Source: Escherichia coli
GTDB taxonomy: Bacteria > Pseudomonadota > Gammaproteobacteria > Enterobacterales > Enterobacteriaceae
NCBI RefSeq assembly: GCF_016026235.1
Contig: NZ_CP065613.1
Reading direction: 5' to 3' (one strand)
Length of the DNA: 64,000 nt
The translations under genes were made by a program, and so were the position numbers. The notes beneath the pieces are model-generated. The model searched no databases, was not told the origin of the DNA, and worked only from the letters and a program-made list of their open reading frames with translations. Numbering within the stretch: position 1 is the stretch's first letter; every line of letters begins with the position of its first letter. Of the stretch, positions 4,330-59,220 are shown piece by piece.

Positions 4330-4450
4330 AGAGACGATCGCCGCAAAGGCGATGCGATAGCAGATTAACTCTTGTTCCCTTCGCAGGTATTAGCCTGATC
4401 AGGTTCCGCGGATCCCGAATAAACGGTCTCAGCCAGTTAAGGCACTCCGA
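4330..4450 (-). promoter_or_regulatory. TPP (thi-box) riboswitch in the thiC leader
   Basis: Reverse strand contains CTGAGA ... ACCTGATCAGGCTAATACCTGCGAAGGGAAC, the conserved thi-box core, directly upstream of thiC. Confidence 0.8.
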
Positions 4451-4511
4451 CAAGAAATTAGCCCCCACAAACGGGGCGTTGAATGTAAATTACGCGTTAA
4501 CAGCGCAGAAC

Positions 4512-9588: not shown

Positions 9589-10008
9589 TTACCAGTGGCC
9601 CATACCCATATGACCGCCACCACCGCAGCCGCCGTAACCCATTCCGGTACCGCGCGGAATACCCGCTTCAGCCATCGCAATATCTCGTTTCACCCGTAAC
9701 TCATCTAACGACTGACGCAAATTCTCCATCTCTTTGGCGACCGCGTTAATTTTGCTGCTATCCGGTGGGTTCGCGGCTAACAGGGCATTGTATTCATAAC
9801 GCTTCGTCACCAGTTGCTGTTGCAGTGCGCTGCTTTGAGCGTAAAAGTCATTATGGATTTTCTGCCACGCTGTCTGTTGTTCGCTGGTCAAAGGCGCGGC
9901 ATTTTGCTGCCACATACCGTGTCCGCCGTGAGCAAATGCCGATGTCGATCCCATCGCCATTGCTGAAAGCGCCATCATCACCAGGGCAATTTTCGTGTTC
10001 CGTTTCAT
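9589..10008 (-). CDS. zraP: zinc-resistance-associated periplasmic protein ZraP (139 aa, Gly/His-rich C-terminus)
   Basis: MKRNTKIALVMMALSAMAMGSTSAFAHGGHGMWQQ...; ATG at 10008 confirmed; upstream track extension is artefact. Confidence 0.9.
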   Translation of the reverse strand: MKRNTKIALVMMALSAMAMGSTSAFAHGGHGMWQQNAAPLTSEQQTAWQKIHNDFYAQSSALQQQLVTKRYEYNALLAANPPDSSKINAVAKEMENLRQSLDELRVKRDIAMAEAGIPRGTGMGYGGCGGGGHMGMGHW

Positions 10009-10042
10009 GGTTAATCCTCCAGTGGTTGTCTTACTTCGGGTA

Positions 10043-10060
10043 TTGCATCTTCCGTGCCAA
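10043..10060 (-). promoter_or_regulatory. sigma54 (-24/-12) promoter of zraP
   Basis: Reverse strand TTGGCACGGAAGATGCAA: GG and GC elements separated by 10 nt. Confidence 0.7.
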
Positions 10061-10101
10061 CGATGAAACGCTGATATGACGGGTAATCTGGCATGATAAA
10101 C

Positions 10102-10147
10102 GAGTAAAAATGACTCGCCTGCTGCGGGTAGCGAGTCATTTTTACTC
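10102..10147. promoter_or_regulatory. ZraR enhancer: 17-bp perfect inverted repeat between the divergent zraP and zraSR promoters
   Basis: GAGTAAAAATGACTCGC-N12-GCGAGTCATTTTTACTC. Confidence 0.75.
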
Positions 10148-10198
10148 ATTGAAACTTAAGCCTTTGTGTTACAGCGCAGGGTAAGCGCTGATAAAAGA

Positions 10199-10214
10199 TG
10201 GCATGATTTCTGCT
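10199..10214 (+). promoter_or_regulatory. sigma54 promoter of zraSR
   Basis: TGGCATGATTTCTGCT with GG/GC spacing of 10 nt, ~30 nt upstream of the zraS ATG. Confidence 0.65.
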
Positions 10215-10245
10215 GTCAGAAAGGGATGAGCAGGCAAAGAAGAAG

Positions 10246-11622
10246 ATGCGTTTTATGCAACGTTCTAAAGACTCCTTAGCTAAATGGTTAAGCGCGATCC
10301 TCCCCGTGGTCATTGTTGGGCTGGTGGGGCTGTTTGCGGTGACGGTGATTCGCGATTATGGGCGCGAGACTGCCGCCGCCAGACAAACGCTGCTGGAAAA
10401 AGGCAGTGTACTTATTCGCGCTCTTGAATCCGGCTCGCGCGTCGGCATGGGGATGCGCATGCATCATGCGCAGCAGCAGGCCTTACTGGAAGAAATGGCC
10501 GGGCAGCCTGGTGTACGTTGGTTTGCGGTCACGGATGAACAAGGAACAATCGTGATGCATAGCAACTCCGGCATGGTGGGAAAACAGCTTTATTCCCCGC
10601 AGGAAATGCAGCAGTTACATCTGGGAGATGAAGAAGCGTGGCGGCGGATCGATAGCGCAGACGGTGAGCCTGTTCTGGAAATTTATCGCCAGTTTCAACC
10701 GATGTTTGCTGCTGGAATGCACCGGATGCGCCATATGCAGCAGTATGCCGCGACACCACAAGCAATTTTCATCGCTTTCGACGCCAGTAATATTGTGAGT
10801 GCCGAAGATCGTGAGCAGAGAAACACCCTGATTATCCTCTTCGCCCTGGCGACGGTCTTGCTGGCAAGCGTGTTGTCATTCTTCTGGTATCGCCGCTATC
10901 TGCGCTCGCGCCAGCTGTTGCAGGATGAAATGAAGCGCAAAGAGAAGTTGGTGGCACTGGGGCATCTTGCGGCAGGTGTTGCCCACGAAATCCGTAACCC
11001 ACTTTCCTCGATTAAAGGACTGGCGAAATACTTTGCCGAGCGCGCGCCTGCAGGGGGAGAAGCGCATCAACTGGCGCAGGTGATGGCGAAAGAAGCTGAC
11101 CGCTTAAACCGCGTGGTAAGCGAGCTGCTGGAACTGGTTAAGCCAACGCATCTGGCTTTGCAGGCGGTGGATCTCAACACGCTGATTAACCACTCATTAC
11201 AGCTGGTAAGCCAGGATGCAAACAGCCGGGAGATCCAGTTACGCTTTACCGCCAACGACACATTACCGGAAATTCAGGCCGATCCGGACAGGCTGACTCA
11301 GGTCCTGTTGAATCTCTATCTCAATGCTATTCAGGCGATTGGTCAGCATGGCGTGATTAGCGTGACGGCCAGCGAAAGCGGCGCGGGCGTGAAAATCAGC
11401 GTTACCGACAGCGGTAAGGGAATTGCGGCAGATCAGCTTGAAGCCATCTTCACTCCGTACTTCACCACCAAAGCCGAAGGCACCGGATTGGGGCTGGCGG
11501 TCGTGCATAATATTGTTGAACAACACGGTGGTACAATTCAGGTCGCAAGCCAGGAGGGAAAAGGCTCAACGTTCACCCTCTGGCTTCCGGTCAATATTAC
11601 GCGTAAGGACCCACAAGGATGA
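10246..11622 (+). CDS. zraS: sensor histidine kinase ZraS (458 aa)
   Basis: Two TM segments and periplasmic domain, then HisKA (LGHLAAGVAHEIRNPL) and HATPase_c (GTGLGLAVV) motifs. Confidence 0.92.
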   Translation: MRFMQRSKDSLAKWLSAILPVVIVGLVGLFAVTVIRDYGRETAAARQTLLEKGSVLIRALESGSRVGMGMRMHHAQQQALLEEMAGQPGVRWFAVTDEQGTIVMHSNSGMVGKQLYSPQEMQQLHLGDEEAWRRIDSADGEPVLEIYRQFQPMFAAGMHRMRHMQQYAATPQAIFIAFDASNIVSAEDREQRNTLIILFALATVLLASVLSFFWYRRYLRSRQLLQDEMKRKEKLVALGHLAAGVAHEIRNPLSSIKGLAKYFAERAPAGGEAHQLAQVMAKEADRLNRVVSELLELVKPTHLALQAVDLNTLINHSLQLVSQDANSREIQLRFTANDTLPEIQADPDRLTQVLLNLYLNAIQAIGQHGVISVTASESGAGVKISVTDSGKGIAADQLEAIFTPYFTTKAEGTGLGLAVVHNIVEQHGGTIQVASQEGKGSTFTLWLPVNITRKDPQG

Positions 11623-12944
11623 CGCACGATAATATCGATATTCTGGTGGTGGATGATGACATTAGCCACTGCACTATTTTGCAGGCTTTACTGCGCGGCT
11701 GGGGCTATAACGTCGCGCTGGCGAACAGCGGGCGACAGGCGCTGGAGCAGGTGCGGGAACAGGTTTTTGATCTTGTGCTTTGCGATGTGCGAATGGCGGA
11801 GATGGACGGCATCGCCACGCTGAAAGAGATCAAAGCGTTAAACCCGGCGATTCCGGTACTGATTATGACCGCGTACTCCAGCGTCGAGACGGCGGTAGAA
11901 GCGTTGAAAACCGGGGCGCTGGATTATCTCATCAAGCCGCTGGATTTCGATAACCTACAGGCGACGCTGGAAAAGGCGCTCGCGCATACGCACAGTATTG
12001 ATGCTGAAACACCTGCGGTGACTGCCAGCCAGTTCGGTATGGTCGGTAAAAGCCCGGCGATGCAACACCTGCTCAGTGAAATCGCCCTCGTCGCGCCATC
12101 GGAAGCCACGGTGCTGATCCACGGCGATTCCGGCACCGGTAAAGAGCTGGTCGCCAGGGCGATTCACGCCAGTAGCGCACGTAGCGAAAAACCGCTGGTA
12201 ACGCTCAACTGTGCGGCACTCAACGAATCCTTACTGGAATCTGAATTGTTCGGTCACGAAAAAGGGGCGTTTACTGGAGCCGATAAACGCCGGGAAGGGC
12301 GCTTTGTTGAGGCGGACGGCGGCACGCTGTTTCTCGATGAAATTGGCGATATCTCGCCGATGATGCAGGTGCGTCTGCTGCGTGCGATTCAGGAGCGCGA
12401 AGTTCAGCGTGTCGGTAGCAACCAGACTATCTCGGTTGATGTCCGGCTGATTGCGGCGACCCATCGCGATCTTGCCGCAGAGGTGAATGCCGGGCGTTTT
12501 CGCCAGGATCTCTACTATCGCCTGAATGTGGTGGCGATTGAAGTACCATCGCTGCGGCAACGGCGGGAAGATATCCCTCTGCTGGCTGGCCATTTTCTGC
12601 AGCGCTTTGCCGAGCGTAATCGCAAGGCGGTAAAAGGTTTTACGCCCCAGGCGATGGATCTGTTGATTCATTACGACTGGCCGGGAAATATTCGTGAGCT
12701 GGAAAACGCGGTGGAACGGGCAGTGGTGCTGCTGACCGGGGAATATATTTCCGAACGCGAGCTGCCGCTGGCGATTGCCAGTACGCCGATCCCGCTGGGG
12801 CAAAGTCAGGATATTCAGCCGCTGGTGGAAGTGGAAAAAGAGGTGATTCTGGCGGCACTGGAGAAAACGGGCGGCAACAAAACTGAAGCCGCCCGTCAGT
12901 TAGGGATCACGCGTAAAACGTTATTGGCAAAACTGTCGCGTTAG
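11619..12944 (+). CDS. zraR: sigma54-dependent response regulator ZraR (441 aa)
   Basis: Receiver domain, AAA+ sigma54-activator core ([23 protein letters not shown]), C-terminal HTH; overlaps zraS by 4 nt. Confidence 0.93.
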
Positions 12945-16447: not shown

Positions 16448-17989
<1,542 letters not shown>

Positions 17990-18074
17990 CCTTAAAGAAG
18001 CGTACTTTGCAGTGCTCACACAGATTGTCTGATAGAAAGTGAAAAGCAAGGCGTCTTGCGAAGCAGACTGATAC

Positions 18075-18150
18075 GTCCCCTTCGTCTAGAGGCCCAGGAC
18101 ACCGCCCTTTCACGGCGGTAACAGGGGTTCGAATCCCCTAGGGGACGCCA
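18075..18150 (+). tRNA. gltV: tRNA-Glu (UUC) in the 16S-23S spacer
   Basis: GTCCCCTTCGTCTAGAGGCCCAGGACACCGCCCTTTCACGGCGGTAACAGGGGTTCGAATCCCCTAGGGGACGCCA. Confidence 0.95.
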
Positions 18151-18343
18151 CTTGCTGGTTTGTGAGTGAAAGTCACCTGCCTTGATATCTCAAAACTCAT
18201 CTTCGGGTGATGTTTGAGATATTTGCTCTTTAAAAATCTGGATCAAGCTGAAAATTGAAACACTGAACAACGAGAGTTGTTCGTGAGTCTCTCAAATTTT
18301 CGCAACACGATGATGAATCGCAAGAAACATCTTCGGGTTGTGA

Positions 18344-21243
<2,900 letters not shown>

Positions 21244-21335
21244 ACAACGCCGAAGATGTTTTGGCGGATGAGAGAAGATTTTCAGCCTGATACAGATTAA
21301 ATCAGAACGCAGAAGCGGTCTGATAAAACAGAATT

Positions 21336-21455
21336 TGCCTGGCGGCCTTAGCGCGGTGGTCCCACCTGACCCCATGCCGAACTCAGAAGTGAAACGCCGT
21401 AGCGCCGATGGTAGTGTGGGGTCTCCCCATGCGAGAGTAGGGAACTGCCAGGCAT
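21336..21455 (+). rRNA. rrfE: 5S ribosomal RNA
   Basis: TGCCTGGCGGCCTTAGCGCGGTGGTCCCACCTGACCCCATGCC...GGGAACTGCCAGGCAT, 120 nt. Confidence 0.97.
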
Positions 21456-26326: not shown

Positions 26327-26462
26327 CTGTAGGCCGGATAAGGCATTTACGCCGCATCCGGCAATCGGTGCACGATGCCTGATGCGACGCTTGCGCGTCT
26401 TATCATGCCTACAACCGTTGCCGAACGTAGGCTGGATAAGGCGTTTACGCCGCATCCGGCAA
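26327..26462. repeat. BIME: cluster of three REP palindromic units between aceA and aceK
   Basis: Three copies of GCCGGATAAGGCRTTYACGCCGCATCCGGC-type palindromes in alternating orientation. Confidence 0.85.
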
Positions 26463-47249: not shown

Positions 47250-47500
47250 TCAGCCTTGGCACAAGGGAAGAGCGGAAGACGGGTGGGCGCAGAGCGATAC
47301 TTCGCTACTATTTTCACCCAGAAGTGCTCCACCACTTGCGAAACGCCCGACTGCGAACGCTTCTGGTGACAACCCAGGGGATTCAGCCCCTGTAGCCGAT
47401 GATGAACGTGGCCAGCCGTTCAATCACCTCGGCGATGCACCCCCTCAGGTGTTATCACAGGACTGGCTCCTCCAACACCGTTACTTGGGCAACGCGCCTC
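47250..47500 (-). promoter_or_regulatory. lysine riboswitch (L-box) in the lysC leader
   Basis: Reverse strand of the ~300-nt leader contains AGAGGCGCGTTGCCCAAGTAACGGTGTTGGAGGAGCCAG...; boundaries approximate. Confidence 0.75.
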
Positions 47501-47746
47501 TTCTGGCCTGCGCTAGCGCAGGTAGTACATTTATAAATAAAGGGTGAGCGGGGCGGTTGTCAACGACGGGGTCATGCGGATTTTTCATCCACTCCTGGCG
47601 GTCAGTAGTTCAGCTAATAAATGCTTCACTGCGCTAAGGGTTTACACTCAACATTACGCTAACGGCACTAAAACCATCACATTTTTCTGTGACTGGCGCT
47701 ACAATCTTCCAAAGTCACAATTCTCAAAATCAGAAGAGTATTGCTA

Positions 47747-49406: not shown

Positions 49407-49500
49407 TGCCTGATGCCGCTATGTAGGCCGGATAAGGCGTTCACGCCGCATCCGGCAACCGATGCCTGATGCGACGCGGTCGCGTCTTATCAGGCCTACA
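49407..49500. repeat. REP/BIME cluster downstream of pgi
   Basis: ATGCCTGATGCCGCTATGTAGGCCGGATAAGGCGTTCACGCCGCATCCGGCAA...GCCTGATGCGACGCGGTCGCGTCTTATCAGGCCTAC. Confidence 0.85.
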
Positions 49501-49572
49501 GGTCGATGCCGATATGTACATCGTATTCGGCAATTAAAACATAGCACGATTGATTAAATAACCTTAATAACA

Positions 49573-49599
49573 ATGCCGACGTTATGTCGGCATTTTTTT
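49573..49599 (+). terminator. rho-independent terminator after pgi
   Basis: Hairpin ATGCCGACgttaTGTCGGCAT followed by TTTTTTT. Confidence 0.8.
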
Positions 49600-49907
49600 A
49601 TCAGATAAATCCCCTTGTCTGTGATTTAACGGAAATCATACCGTGAGGTTAATCCTAAAATAGATTTTTAATCGTTGTTTATTTCGGAAAATACGCAGAT
49701 TAATTACTTTTGTTTTTATTTTAATTTTATGATTTTTATTGTTATTTAAATATAAGTTGAAACTTATATTTGATATTCATTCCAATTATCCTAAAACGCC
49801 ATCGCTAATTCCCCGCGCCGTAATTCGCATGCTTTAGTTGTGTATACTCGATCCCGCCCGAAATGTTTTTGGGTAAATCTCCATTCATTCAATGAAGGGA
49901 AATTGTT

Positions 49908-59096: not shown

Positions 59097-59220
59097 GGAC
59101 GGATAAGGCTTTCACGCCTTATCCGACAACAACTGCCTGATGCGACGCTGACGCGTCTTATCAGGCCTACATACGTTTCGGTTTTGTAGGCCGGACAAGG
59201 CGTTCACGCCGCATCCGGCA
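59097..59220. repeat. REP/BIME cluster in the malE-malF intergenic region
   Basis: GGATAAGGCTTTCACGCCTTATCC ... GCCTGATGCGACGCTGACGCGTCTTATCAGGCCTAC ... GTAGGCCGGACAAGGCGTTCACGCCGCATCCGGC. Confidence 0.9.

What the first reader, a model, noticed from the sequence alone, without database searches (positions are those of the whole stretch)
10043..10214. zraP/zraSR divergent sigma54 promoters with central 17-bp ZraR palindrome
Sigma54 -24/-12 elements face in opposite directions (zraP: TTGGCACGGAAGATGCAA on the minus strand; zraSR: TGGCATGATTTCTGCT on the plus strand), flanking the perfect inverted repeat GAGTAAAAATGACTCGC-N12-GCGAGTCATTTTTACTC. This is the textbook zinc-responsive enhancer arrangement and appears intact; recorded as a reference point.
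Basis: partly seen in the sequence, partly recalled or inferred. Interest (0 to 1): 0.2.

Follow-up and report, generated by a model that had tools for sequence, protein, structure and literature searches.

The report
Known zraP–zraSR sigma-54 control region
This is the well-known E. coli switch in which the regulator ZraR binds between the zraP and zraSR genes and turns both on through the alternative sigma factor 54; it is intact, identical to the laboratory strain K-12, and ordinary.

Summary
Window 10009-10245 is the 237-bp zraP–zraSR intergenic region. It is 100% identical to E. coli K-12 MG1655.

- **Promoters.** The two -24/-12 elements (10044-10060 minus, 10198-10214 plus) are the two best sigma-54 matrix hits in the 64-kb window. 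They are the exact sequences bound by sigma-54 in published K-12 ChIP-seq.
- **Palindrome.** The arms lie at 10102-10118 and 10131-10147. The strongest published ZraR ChIP-exo peak maps inside it (window 10106-10138).
- **Conservation.** Across Escherichia, Citrobacter and Salmonella arizonae the spacer varies freely. Both promoters, both ZraR sites and their 31-bp spacing are conserved.

One refinement: this is not a single 17-bp palindrome. It is two 17-bp ZraR sites, each with its own dyad (CGAGT-N7-ACTCG), inverted relative to each other and three helical turns apart.

Small additions:
- A cross-genus site consensus, GRGTAAAAATGACYC.
- An 11-bp indel on the zraP side, roughly one helical turn.
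- An unexplained conserved block at 10163-10184.
- No IHF consensus.

Just outside the finding, the ZraS periplasmic sensor domain occurs in E. coli as two sharply bounded types that are 59% identical. K-12 carries the minority type.

Verdict: already known, low interest.

The parts
9589..10008 (-). zraP coding sequence (139 aa periplasmic ZraP, Metal_resist family). It is 98% identical to K-12, with a 2-aa deletion in the Gly/Met-rich tail.
10044..10060 (-). zraP sigma-54 promoter, TTGGCACGGAAGATGCA. GG is at 10058/10057 and GC at 10046/10045. The predicted start site is about 10033, giving a leader of about 25 nt.
   Evidence: Sequence read. Matrix rank 1 in the window. Identical to ChIP-seq site OS38. 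Conserved in all 22 loci. The start site is predicted, not mapped here.
10101..10117 (.). ZraR site 1, CGAGTAAAAATGACTCG. It has the internal dyad CGAGT-N7-ACTCG, centred at 10109. That is about -76 from the zraP start site and -116 from the zraS start site.
   Evidence: The ChIP-exo peak at window 10106-10138 covers it.
10118..10131 (.). 14-bp spacer between the two ZraR sites. The sequence is not conserved but the length is: the sites are 31 bp centre to centre in 21 of 22 loci.
10132..10148 (.). ZraR site 2, CGAGTCATTTTTACTCA. It is the inverted copy of site 1, centred at 10140. That is about -85 from the zraS start site and -107 from the zraP start site.
10163..10184 (.). Conserved block TTTGTGT-N7-CAGGGT(A/T)A between ZraR site 2 and the zraS promoter. 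Function unknown. No counterpart on the zraP side.
   Evidence: Alignment A2. No IHF consensus. No sigma-70-like promoter.
10198..10214 (+). zraSR sigma-54 promoter, ATGGCATGATTTCTGCT. GG is at 10200/10201 and GC at 10212/10213. The predicted start site is about 10225, giving a leader of about 21 nt.
   Evidence: Sequence read. Matrix rank 2. Identical to ChIP-seq site OS39. Conserved in all 22 loci.
10246..11622 (+). zraS coding sequence (458 aa sensor kinase). Its periplasmic domain, roughly nt 10340-10838, is a divergent type relative to K-12.
11619..12944 (+). zraR coding sequence (441 aa). It is the sigma-54 enhancer-binding response regulator: receiver, AAA+ sigma-54 interaction domain and Fis-type HTH.

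Best explanation
This is the native control region of the E. coli ZraPSR system. One shared enhancer sits between two divergent sigma-54 promoters.

RNA polymerase carrying sigma-54 binds the -24/-12 elements of zraP (reading leftward) and zraSR (reading rightward) as closed complexes that cannot start transcription unaided. When periplasmic Zn2+/Pb2+ or envelope stress activates the kinase ZraS, it phosphorylates ZraR. ZraR dimers occupy the two 17-bp dyad sites, which lie 31 bp apart (three helical turns, so on the same face of the DNA). They assemble into the active AAA+ oligomer. The intervening 50-60 bp of DNA loops so that the oligomer touches the polymerase. ATP hydrolysis then opens the promoter.

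zraP is induced very strongly. zraSR is induced modestly, giving positive autoregulation. ZraP then feeds back negatively on ZraS.

What is shown directly or in cited data for the identical sequence: the sequence elements, their statistical significance, their conservation and spacing, sigma-54 occupancy, ZraR occupancy, and ZraR dependence of expression. What is inferred from knowledge of NtrC-family activators: dimer-per-site binding, oligomerisation, looping, and the exact start sites.
For: - **Sequence and coordinates.**
- **Identity to K-12.** 100% over the intergenic region.
- **Gene identities and domains.**
- **Motif statistics.**
- **Sigma-54 occupancy.** ChIP-seq sites OS38 (fold above threshold 39) and OS39 (fold above threshold 9) have exactly these sequences. 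They are the only high-stringency peaks in this part of the K-12 chromosome (PMC4591121).
- **Salmonella LT2.** ChIP-chip sites at the orthologous positions, with 16-fold (zraP) and 3.7-fold (hydHG) sigma-54-dependent induction (PMC3844500).
- **ZraR occupancy.** ChIP-exo peak_9 (signal/noise 73) at NC_000913.3 4201786-4201818 maps to window 10106-10138, inside the palindrome.
- **ZraR dependence.** With zinc, deleting zraR changes zraP by log2 -12.7 and zraS by log2 -3.2.
- **gSELEX.** 81 of 86 clones carry this spacer (PMC8249747).
- **Phylogenetic footprint.** Among 18 aligned sequences from three genera, mean column identity is 69%. Both promoters and both ZraR sites are near-invariant.
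- **Spacing.** Site-to-site spacing is 31 bp in 21 of 22 loci. Site 2 to the zraS GG is 58.5-60.5 bp. Site 1 to the zraP GG is 50.5-51.5 bp in Escherichia and 61.5-62.5 bp in Citrobacter and Salmonella, a difference of 10-12 bp (11 bp between the typical values), roughly one helical turn.
- **Population.** The region is present in 5419 of 5426 complete E. coli genomes.
Against: Nothing contradicts the explanation. There are gaps.

- No start site was mapped here, and EcoCyc lists both promoters as 'predicted' according to the ChIP-seq paper's table.
- No IHF consensus lies between the enhancer and either promoter, so how the short loop forms is unexplained.
- Without zinc, zraS expression does not depend on ZraR (log2 -0.02). 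Some other basal promoter must therefore exist, but the sigma-70 scan found none.
- A conserved block at 10163-10184 has no assigned role.
- A second ZraR ChIP-exo peak (window 9993-10018) has no ZraR motif beneath it.
- The primary footprinting paper (Leonhartsberger et al. 2001, J Mol Biol) is not in the held library. My statement that it describes two inverted repeats separated by 14 bp rests on memory.
Confidence: 0.96

Rival explanations
1. The 46-bp hyphenated palindrome is a structural DNA or RNA element (cruciform, bidirectional terminator, or REP-like repeat) rather than a protein-binding enhancer.
For: It is a long perfect inverted repeat (17-20 nt arms) that could in principle extrude as a hairpin.
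Against: - It lies between the 5' ends of two divergent genes and upstream of both predicted start sites, so it is not transcribed and no terminator is needed there.
- The terminator scan finds nothing, and Rfam finds nothing in the region.
- Conservation does not look like a stem. The asymmetric centre AAAAATG of each arm is invariant. The flanking GAGT/ACTC positions tolerate A/G and T/C changes that break arm-to-arm complementarity in many species, for example GAGT...ACTC in site 1 against GGGT...ACCC in site 2 in Citrobacter.
- ZraR ChIP-exo maps onto it.
Confidence: 0.01
2. The region encodes a 42-aa protein on the minus strand (10011-10139). NCBI's pipeline annotates it as 'hypothetical protein' in some genomes, and on this reading the conserved sequence reflects that gene.
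For: PGAP annotates WP_001297563.1 at this position in strain FDAARGOS_943 and in other genomes.
Against: - No Pfam family matches.
- The ORF overlaps the zraP promoter and ZraR site 1.
- The reading frame is not kept in relatives. E. albertii has a 1-nt indel, and Citrobacter and Salmonella have an 11-nt indel within it.
- Outside the four regulatory islands the sequence is poorly conserved.
Confidence: 0.02
3. The shared enhancer really serves only zraP. On this reading zraSR is driven mainly from another, unrecognised promoter, and its -24/-12 element is a weak or accessory sigma-54 site.
For: - zraS responds far less than zraP: log2 -3.2 against -12.7 with zinc, and -0.02 against -5.6 without.
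- Sigma-54 occupancy is lower at zraS (fold above threshold 9 against 39).
- Induction in Salmonella is 3.7-fold against 16-fold.
Against: - The zraS element scores at the 85th percentile of real sigma-54 sites.
- It is bound in vivo in both E. coli and Salmonella.
- It is as strictly conserved as the zraP element, and its distance to ZraR site 2 is held within 2 bp.
- zraS does lose about 9-fold expression in a zraR deletion with zinc.
- No sigma-70-like promoter is detectable.

The most likely picture is a genuine but weaker ZraR-dependent promoter plus an undefined basal one.
Confidence: 0.05

Closest known systems
E. coli K-12 zraP–zraSR (hydHG) intergenic region (Leonhartsberger et al. 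2001; sigma-54 ChIP-seq sites OS38/OS39 of Bonocora et al. 2015)
   Same: All 237 bp are identical, along with gene order and neighbours (hupA-yjaH-zraP / zraS-zraR-purD).
   Different: Nothing differs in the control region. The adjacent genes differ. ZraP lacks 2 residues in its C-terminal tail. The ZraS periplasmic domain is only 59% identical to that of K-12.
NtrC enhancer at glnAp2 (two dyad-symmetric 17-bp sites about three helical turns apart, upstream of a sigma-54 promoter)
   Same: Two 17-bp dyad sites sit 31 bp apart, about 75-115 bp upstream. They are bound by a receiver-AAA+-Fis-HTH response regulator. The glnAp2 comparison itself is from general knowledge.
   Different: The recognition sequence differs (GRGT-N7-ACYC with an invariant A5TG centre, not TGCACC-N5-GGTGCA). 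One enhancer serves two divergent promoters. I identified no additional low-affinity sites.
NorR enhancer at norR–norVW (inverted repeats with core GT-N7-AC)
   Same: ZraR sites contain the same GT-N7-AC core spacing (GAGT-AAAAATG-ACTC). Both sit in a divergent intergenic region next to the regulator gene (PMC2831303).
   Different: NorR needs three sites and has an IHF site between the enhancer and the promoter. Here there are two sites and no IHF consensus. Only one norR–norV promoter is sigma-54-dependent, whereas both are here.
hycA–hypA divergent sigma-54 promoters of the formate regulon (FhlA)
   Same: This is the other E. coli case of two back-to-back sigma-54 promoters in one intergenic region. 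The motif centres are 128 bp apart there and 154 bp apart here.
   Different: The activator (FhlA) and enhancer sequence (CATTTCGTACGAAATG) are different. FhlA is not a two-component response regulator.

Membership tests
Sigma-54 (-24/-12) promoter | GG and GC dinucleotides exactly 10 bp apart within a TGGCAC-N5-TTGCW-like sequence | tested here: met
   zraP: TGGCACGGAAGATGCA. zraS: TGGCATGATTTCTGCT. Against a matrix from 133 independent ChIP-seq sites they score 17.43 and 16.35, the 94th and 85th percentile of real sites and ranks 1 and 2 in the window.
Sigma-54 (-24/-12) promoter | Correct orientation and short distance upstream of a gene | tested here: met
   The minus-strand element lies 35 bp upstream of the zraP ATG (10008). 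The plus-strand element lies 32 bp upstream of the zraS ATG (10246).
Sigma-54 (-24/-12) promoter | Occupied by sigma-54 holoenzyme in vivo | not testable with these tools
   I could not measure this here. Published ChIP-seq in K-12 (sites OS38 and OS39, PMC4591121) and ChIP-chip in Salmonella LT2 (PMC3844500) show binding at sequences identical or orthologous to the window's. Identity to K-12 was tested.
Sigma-54 (-24/-12) promoter | A cognate enhancer-binding protein with a sigma-54 interaction AAA+ domain is available | tested here: met
   ZraR, encoded 1.4 kb downstream, has Response_reg + Sigma54_activat (E = 8e-74) + HTH_8.
Bacterial enhancer (upstream activating sequence) of an NtrC-family activator | Dyad-symmetric sites about 70-150 bp upstream of the promoter, in helical phase with each other | tested here: met
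   There are two CGAGT-N7-ACTCG sites centred at 10109 and 10140, 31 bp apart. They lie at about -76/-107 from zraP and -85/-116 from zraS.
Bacterial enhancer (upstream activating sequence) of an NtrC-family activator | Conserved in sequence and spacing among orthologous loci while the flanking spacer drifts | tested here: met
   Alignment of 18 sequences from three genera. Spacing table for 22 loci.
Bacterial enhancer (upstream activating sequence) of an NtrC-family activator | Bound by the activator | not testable with these tools
   Published ZraR ChIP-exo peak_9 maps to window 10106-10138. gSELEX recovers this spacer in 81 of 86 clones. I did not measure binding here.
Bacterial enhancer (upstream activating sequence) of an NtrC-family activator | IHF site between enhancer and promoter. 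This is common but not obligatory. | tested here: not met
   No WATCAANNNNTTR match with up to 1 mismatch anywhere in 10009-10245. Because the feature is optional, this does not affect membership.
ZraPSR locus | Divergent zraP and zraS-zraR genes in the hupA-yjaH / purD-purH neighbourhood | tested here: met
   ORF map, K-12 and RefSeq annotation, Pfam domains.

The most novel reading that the evidence does not exclude
The control region may hold more than the four textbook elements, and it is wired to two different sensors.

(a) The conserved block TTTGTGT-N7-CAGGGTTA lies at about -62 to -41 of the zraS promoter and has no counterpart on the zraP side. It could bind an unidentified architectural or regulatory protein, or provide a third low-affinity ZraR contact. 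That would make the shared enhancer asymmetric and could help explain why zraS responds orders of magnitude less than zraP.

(b) The same invariant control region is coupled, in different E. coli lineages, to two old and sharply bounded ZraS periplasmic sensor types that are 59% identical. These may respond to different signals. K-12, on which all experiments were done, carries the minority type.
Probability: 0.2. Interest if true: 0.45.

Novelty: already known. Interest (0 to 1): 0.1.

Why it matters
It confirms that the window is ordinary E. coli chromosome around zraPSR and that the zinc/envelope-stress switch is intact.

The comparative analysis adds a few things:
- A cross-genus consensus for the ZraR site, GRGTAAAAATGACYC. 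A 2016 Salmonella review still listed the ZraR enhancer sequence as not known.
- Evidence that the distance from the enhancer to the zraP promoter changed by roughly one helical turn (11 bp between the typical values).
- A conserved block with no assigned function.

The neighbouring ZraS sensor-domain dimorphism could matter more. All conclusions about what ZraS senses come from the type carried by only about 23% of sequenced E. coli genomes.

Tried and rejected
- **Second TGGCATGAT copy (10089-10097, plus strand, just left of site 1).** I considered it as a third -24 element. It has no GC at -12, scores only 7.3, and is not conserved outside E. coli and its closest relatives. I treat it as chance.
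- **IHF site.** None found in the intergenic region.
- **Sigma-70 promoter or terminator.** None found.
- **Rfam.** Nothing in the region.
- **Other sigma-54-like hits in the window** (25339, 5470, 63315, 58158 and others). They score 14.0 or less, which is at chance expectation, and none corresponds to a high-stringency K-12 ChIP-seq peak.
- **Inverted repeat flanking the zraP promoter (10001-10012 / 10059-10070).** The left arm is zraP coding sequence and the right arm is not conserved. I treat it as chance.
- **CpxR-box-like GTAAG-N5-ATAAA at 10181-10195.** Not conserved in Citrobacter. The CpxR consensus is from memory. Not pursued.
- **Solved structure of the ZraS periplasmic domain.** No PDB match by sequence.
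- **Primary paper (Leonhartsberger 2001).** Not held.
- **Literature on ZraS type dimorphism.** Nothing relevant found. The one 'zraS_2' mention sits in a gene cluster with atoA and atoD and is probably the atoSC system carrying a zra-like label, not a zraS type.

Full report
**1. What is in the sequence.**

- Plus strand 10043-10060 is TTGCATCTTCCGTGCCAA, which reads TTGGCACGGAAGATGCAA on the minus strand.
- 10199-10214 is TGGCATGATTTCTGCT on the plus strand.
- 10102-10118 (GAGTAAAAATGACTCGC) and 10131-10147 (GCGAGTCATTTTTACTC) are perfectly complementary arms separated by 12 nt.

The repeat finder extends the arms to 20 nt at 95% complementarity (10099-10118 / 10131-10150).

The ORF map places these features between two genes. 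A 139-aa gene on the minus strand ends its upstream side at 10008. A 458-aa gene on the plus strand starts at 10246 and is followed by an overlapping 441-aa gene. Pfam identifies the three as:
- a Metal_resist protein;
- a HisKA/HATPase_c histidine kinase;
- a Response_reg + Sigma54_activat + HTH_8 regulator.

The neighbours are nfi, yjaG, hupA and yjaH on one side and purD and purH on the other. This is the E. coli zraP / zraS-zraR locus.

**2. Identity with the reference.**

The 301 bases spanning the whole intergenic region are 100% identical to K-12 MG1655, NC_000913.3. The conversion is K-12 coordinate = window coordinate + 4,191,680. The 237-bp spacer is present in 5419 of 5426 complete E. 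coli genomes and is at least 99% identical in 3718 of them.

**3. Are the -24/-12 elements real?**

The loose pattern TGGCAY-N6-TGCW occurs three times in the window, twice here.

I took the sigma-54 ChIP-seq motif lists of Bonocora et al. 2015 (PMC4591121). I left out the two zra sites and built position weight matrices from the remainder.

With 40 intergenic sites, the two zra elements rank 1 and 2 of the window.

With all 133 other sites:

| Element | Score | p per site | Percentile among real bound sites |
|---|---|---|---|
| zraP | 17.43 | 4.7e-7 | 94th |
| zraS | 16.35 | 1.3e-6 | 85th |
| next best in window | 14.0 | at chance expectation | – |

A correctly oriented divergent pair of this quality is expected 1.6e-5 times per 64 kb.

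The same paper lists exactly these 17-mers as bound sites. OS38 is TTGGCACGGAAGATGCA (zraP, fold above threshold 39). OS39 is ATGGCATGATTTCTGCT (zraS, fold above threshold 9). They are the only high-stringency peaks in this part of the K-12 chromosome.

In Salmonella Typhimurium LT2 the orthologous sites (TGGCACGGAAGATGCAAG and TGGCATGATCTCTGCTTA) bind sigma-54 holoenzyme. They give 16-fold and 3.7-fold sigma-54-dependent induction (PMC3844500).

Using the convention of the ChIP-seq paper (start site 19 bp downstream of the motif centre), the predicted start sites are about 10033 on the minus strand and about 10225 on the plus strand. These are predictions. No start site was mapped here.

**4. 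Is the palindrome the ZraR site?**

The supplementary ChIP-exo table of Choudhary et al. 2020 (PMC7657598) gives the strongest ZraR peak in the genome (peak_9, signal/noise 73) at NC_000913.3 4201786-4201818. That maps to window 10106-10138, inside the palindrome, whose centre is 10124.5.

In the same study, deleting zraR lowers expression as follows (log2 change):

| Condition | zraP | zraS |
|---|---|---|
| with zinc | -12.7 | -3.2 |
| without zinc | -5.6 | -0.02 |

Genomic SELEX with purified ZraR recovered this spacer in 81 of 86 clones, as the single high-affinity target (PMC8249747).

The original footprinting paper (Leonhartsberger et al. 2001) is not in the held library. My recollection is that it describes two inverted repeats separated by a 14-bp spacer. 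That fits the anatomy below, but it rests on memory.

**5. Anatomy, refined.**

Each arm is itself a 17-bp dyad: CGAGT-AAAAATG-ACTCG at 10101-10117 and CGAGT-CATTTTT-ACTCa at 10132-10148. A 14-bp spacer separates them. The structure is therefore two dimer-type sites that are inverted relative to each other, not one palindrome. Their centres (10109 and 10140) are 31 bp apart, three helical turns.

Relative to the predicted start sites, the two sites lie at about -76/-107 for zraP and -85/-116 for zraS.

**6. Comparative evidence.**

A scan of one genome per species with ZraP returned 21 loci from Escherichia, Citrobacter and Salmonella enterica subsp. arizonae. In an alignment of 18 intergenic regions, mean column identity is 69%. 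Four islands are nearly invariant: the zraP -24/-12 element, site 1, site 2, and the zraS -24/-12 element.

The site consensus is GRGTAAAAATGACYC. The asymmetric centre AAAAATG is changed in only 2 of 44 sites. The second and fourteenth positions vary freely (A/G and T/C). This argues against a base-paired stem and for protein recognition or DNA-shape recognition. The consensus matches exactly only at the two sites in the whole window.

Spacings:

| Interval | Distance |
|---|---|
| site 1 centre to site 2 centre | 31 bp in 21 of 22 loci (32 bp in one) |
| site 2 centre to the zraS GG | 58.5-60.5 bp |
| site 1 centre to the zraP GG, Escherichia | 50.5-51.5 bp |
| site 1 centre to the zraP GG, Citrobacter and Salmonella | 61.5-62.5 bp |

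The zraP-side difference is 10-12 bp (11 bp between the typical values of 51.5 and 62.5), roughly one helical turn. This is the pattern expected if the activator must lie on a particular face of the helix relative to the polymerase. That reading is an inference.

**7. Mechanism.**

The cited data, together with identity to K-12, show three things:
- sigma-54 holoenzyme occupies both promoters;
- ZraR occupies the palindrome;
- both transcription units depend on ZraR when zinc is present, zraP far more than zraS.

The following steps are inferred from the NtrC family. Phosphorylation by ZraS drives ZraR dimers on the two in-phase sites to assemble the active AAA+ ring. The short intervening DNA loops. 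ATP hydrolysis remodels the closed complex.

No IHF consensus is present in the spacer, so looping may rely on intrinsic bending. The symmetric A5 tracts are one candidate. Alternatively it may rely on the unexplained block described in section 8. No sigma-70-like promoter or terminator is detectable, and Rfam finds nothing in the region.

**8. Loose ends.**

(a) A fifth conserved block, TTTGTGT-N7-CAGGGT(A/T)A at 10163-10184, lies between site 2 and the zraS promoter. It has no counterpart on the zraP side. I could not assign it.

(b) ZraR-independent basal zraS expression implies a basal promoter that I did not find.

(c) A second ZraR ChIP-exo peak (signal/noise 34) maps to window 9993-10018, over the zraP start codon, where there is no ZraR-like motif. 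The likeliest cause is indirect cross-linking through the loop to polymerase at the zraP promoter, but this is a guess.

(d) A second TGGCATGAT at 10089-10097 is a non-conserved chance copy with no -12 element.

(e) Some RefSeq genomes annotate a 42-aa 'hypothetical protein' across 10011-10139 on the minus strand. It has no family, overlaps the promoter and site 1, and its frame is broken in relatives. It is almost certainly spurious.

**9. Outside the finding: two types of the ZraS sensor domain.**

The control region and the cytoplasmic part of ZraS are identical to K-12. The periplasmic sensor domain is only 59% identical in protein sequence and is 7 residues shorter. The divergent block is sharply bounded at about nt 10340-10838.

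Among complete E. coli genomes the split is strictly bimodal:
- 4183 genomes carry the window type, at 95% identity or more.
- 1236 genomes carry the K-12 type. Of these, 967 are at least 99% identical to K-12 and 269 are 90-95% identical.
- Between the two types, nucleotide identity is only 60-80%, with no intermediates.

REL606 carries the window type and K-12 carries the other. From general knowledge both strains belong to phylogroup A, so the split would not follow phylogroups; this was not tested here. Both types also occur in other Escherichia species. E. whittamii and E. albertii NBRC 107761 are K-12-like. Escherichia sp. MOD1-EC7003 and strain SCPM-O-B-8794 are window-like. Each type is about as far from the other as from Citrobacter or Salmonella (59% against 61-66%).

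I found no solved structure of this domain and no report of the dimorphism in the searchable literature.

**10. Verdict.**

The feature is already known and fully intact. Interest is low. The small additions are the cross-genus ZraR consensus, the roughly one-turn indel, the unassigned conserved block, and the sensor-domain dimorphism next door.

Noticed in passing
window 10340-10838 (within zraS, 10246-11622): The ZraS periplasmic sensor domain is a sharply bounded divergent type. It is 59% identical in protein to K-12, while the flanks are 98-100% identical. Among complete E. coli genomes the split is strictly bimodal: 4183 carry the window type and 1236 carry the K-12 type, with no intermediates. 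Both types also occur in other Escherichia species, and K-12 and REL606 carry different types. I found no report of this in the searchable literature.
   Followed up: partly
window 10163-10184: A conserved block, TTTGTGT-N7-CAGGGT(A/T)A, lies between ZraR site 2 and the zraS promoter in Escherichia and Citrobacter, and partly in Salmonella arizonae. It has no counterpart on the zraP side. It is not an IHF, sigma-70 or ZraR-like motif. Its function is unknown.
   Followed up: partly
window 9993-10018: A second published ZraR ChIP-exo peak (signal/noise 34; K-12 4201673-4201698) lies over the zraP start codon, downstream of the zraP promoter. No ZraR-like motif is present there. It may be indirect cross-linking through the DNA loop.
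   Followed up: no
window 10011-10139 (minus strand): A 42-aa ORF is annotated 'hypothetical protein' (WP_001297563.1) by PGAP in some E. coli genomes. It overlaps the zraP promoter and ZraR site 1, has no Pfam match, and its frame is not conserved in relatives. It is probably a spurious gene call.
   Followed up: partly
window 10089-10097: A second exact copy of TGGCATGAT, the -24 half of the zraS promoter, sits just left of ZraR site 1. It has no -12 GC, scores 7.3 on the matrix, and is not conserved beyond E. coli and its closest relatives.
   Followed up: yes
window 9606-9659 (3' end of zraP): ZraP is 139 aa, against 141 aa in K-12. There is a 6-nt deletion in the Gly/Met-rich C-terminal tail (...PRGT--GMGYGG... 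against ...PRGAGMGMGYGG...).
   Followed up: no
H7 (NZ_CP147101.1, strain KFu021), region matching window 9589-10700: In this river-water isolate the match is split into two pieces, with an IS1A transposase annotated and zraP listed twice. An IS1 insertion appears to have disrupted the locus.
   Followed up: no
window 4359-4459, 16448-21453, 26332-26409, 47314-47510, 49426-49711, 59097-59167: Rfam gathering-threshold hits elsewhere in the window: a TPP riboswitch, an rRNA operon with a tRNA and 5S, three naRNA4 (REP-derived) copies, a lysine riboswitch, and STnc430. All are as expected for this part of the E. coli chromosome.
   Followed up: no
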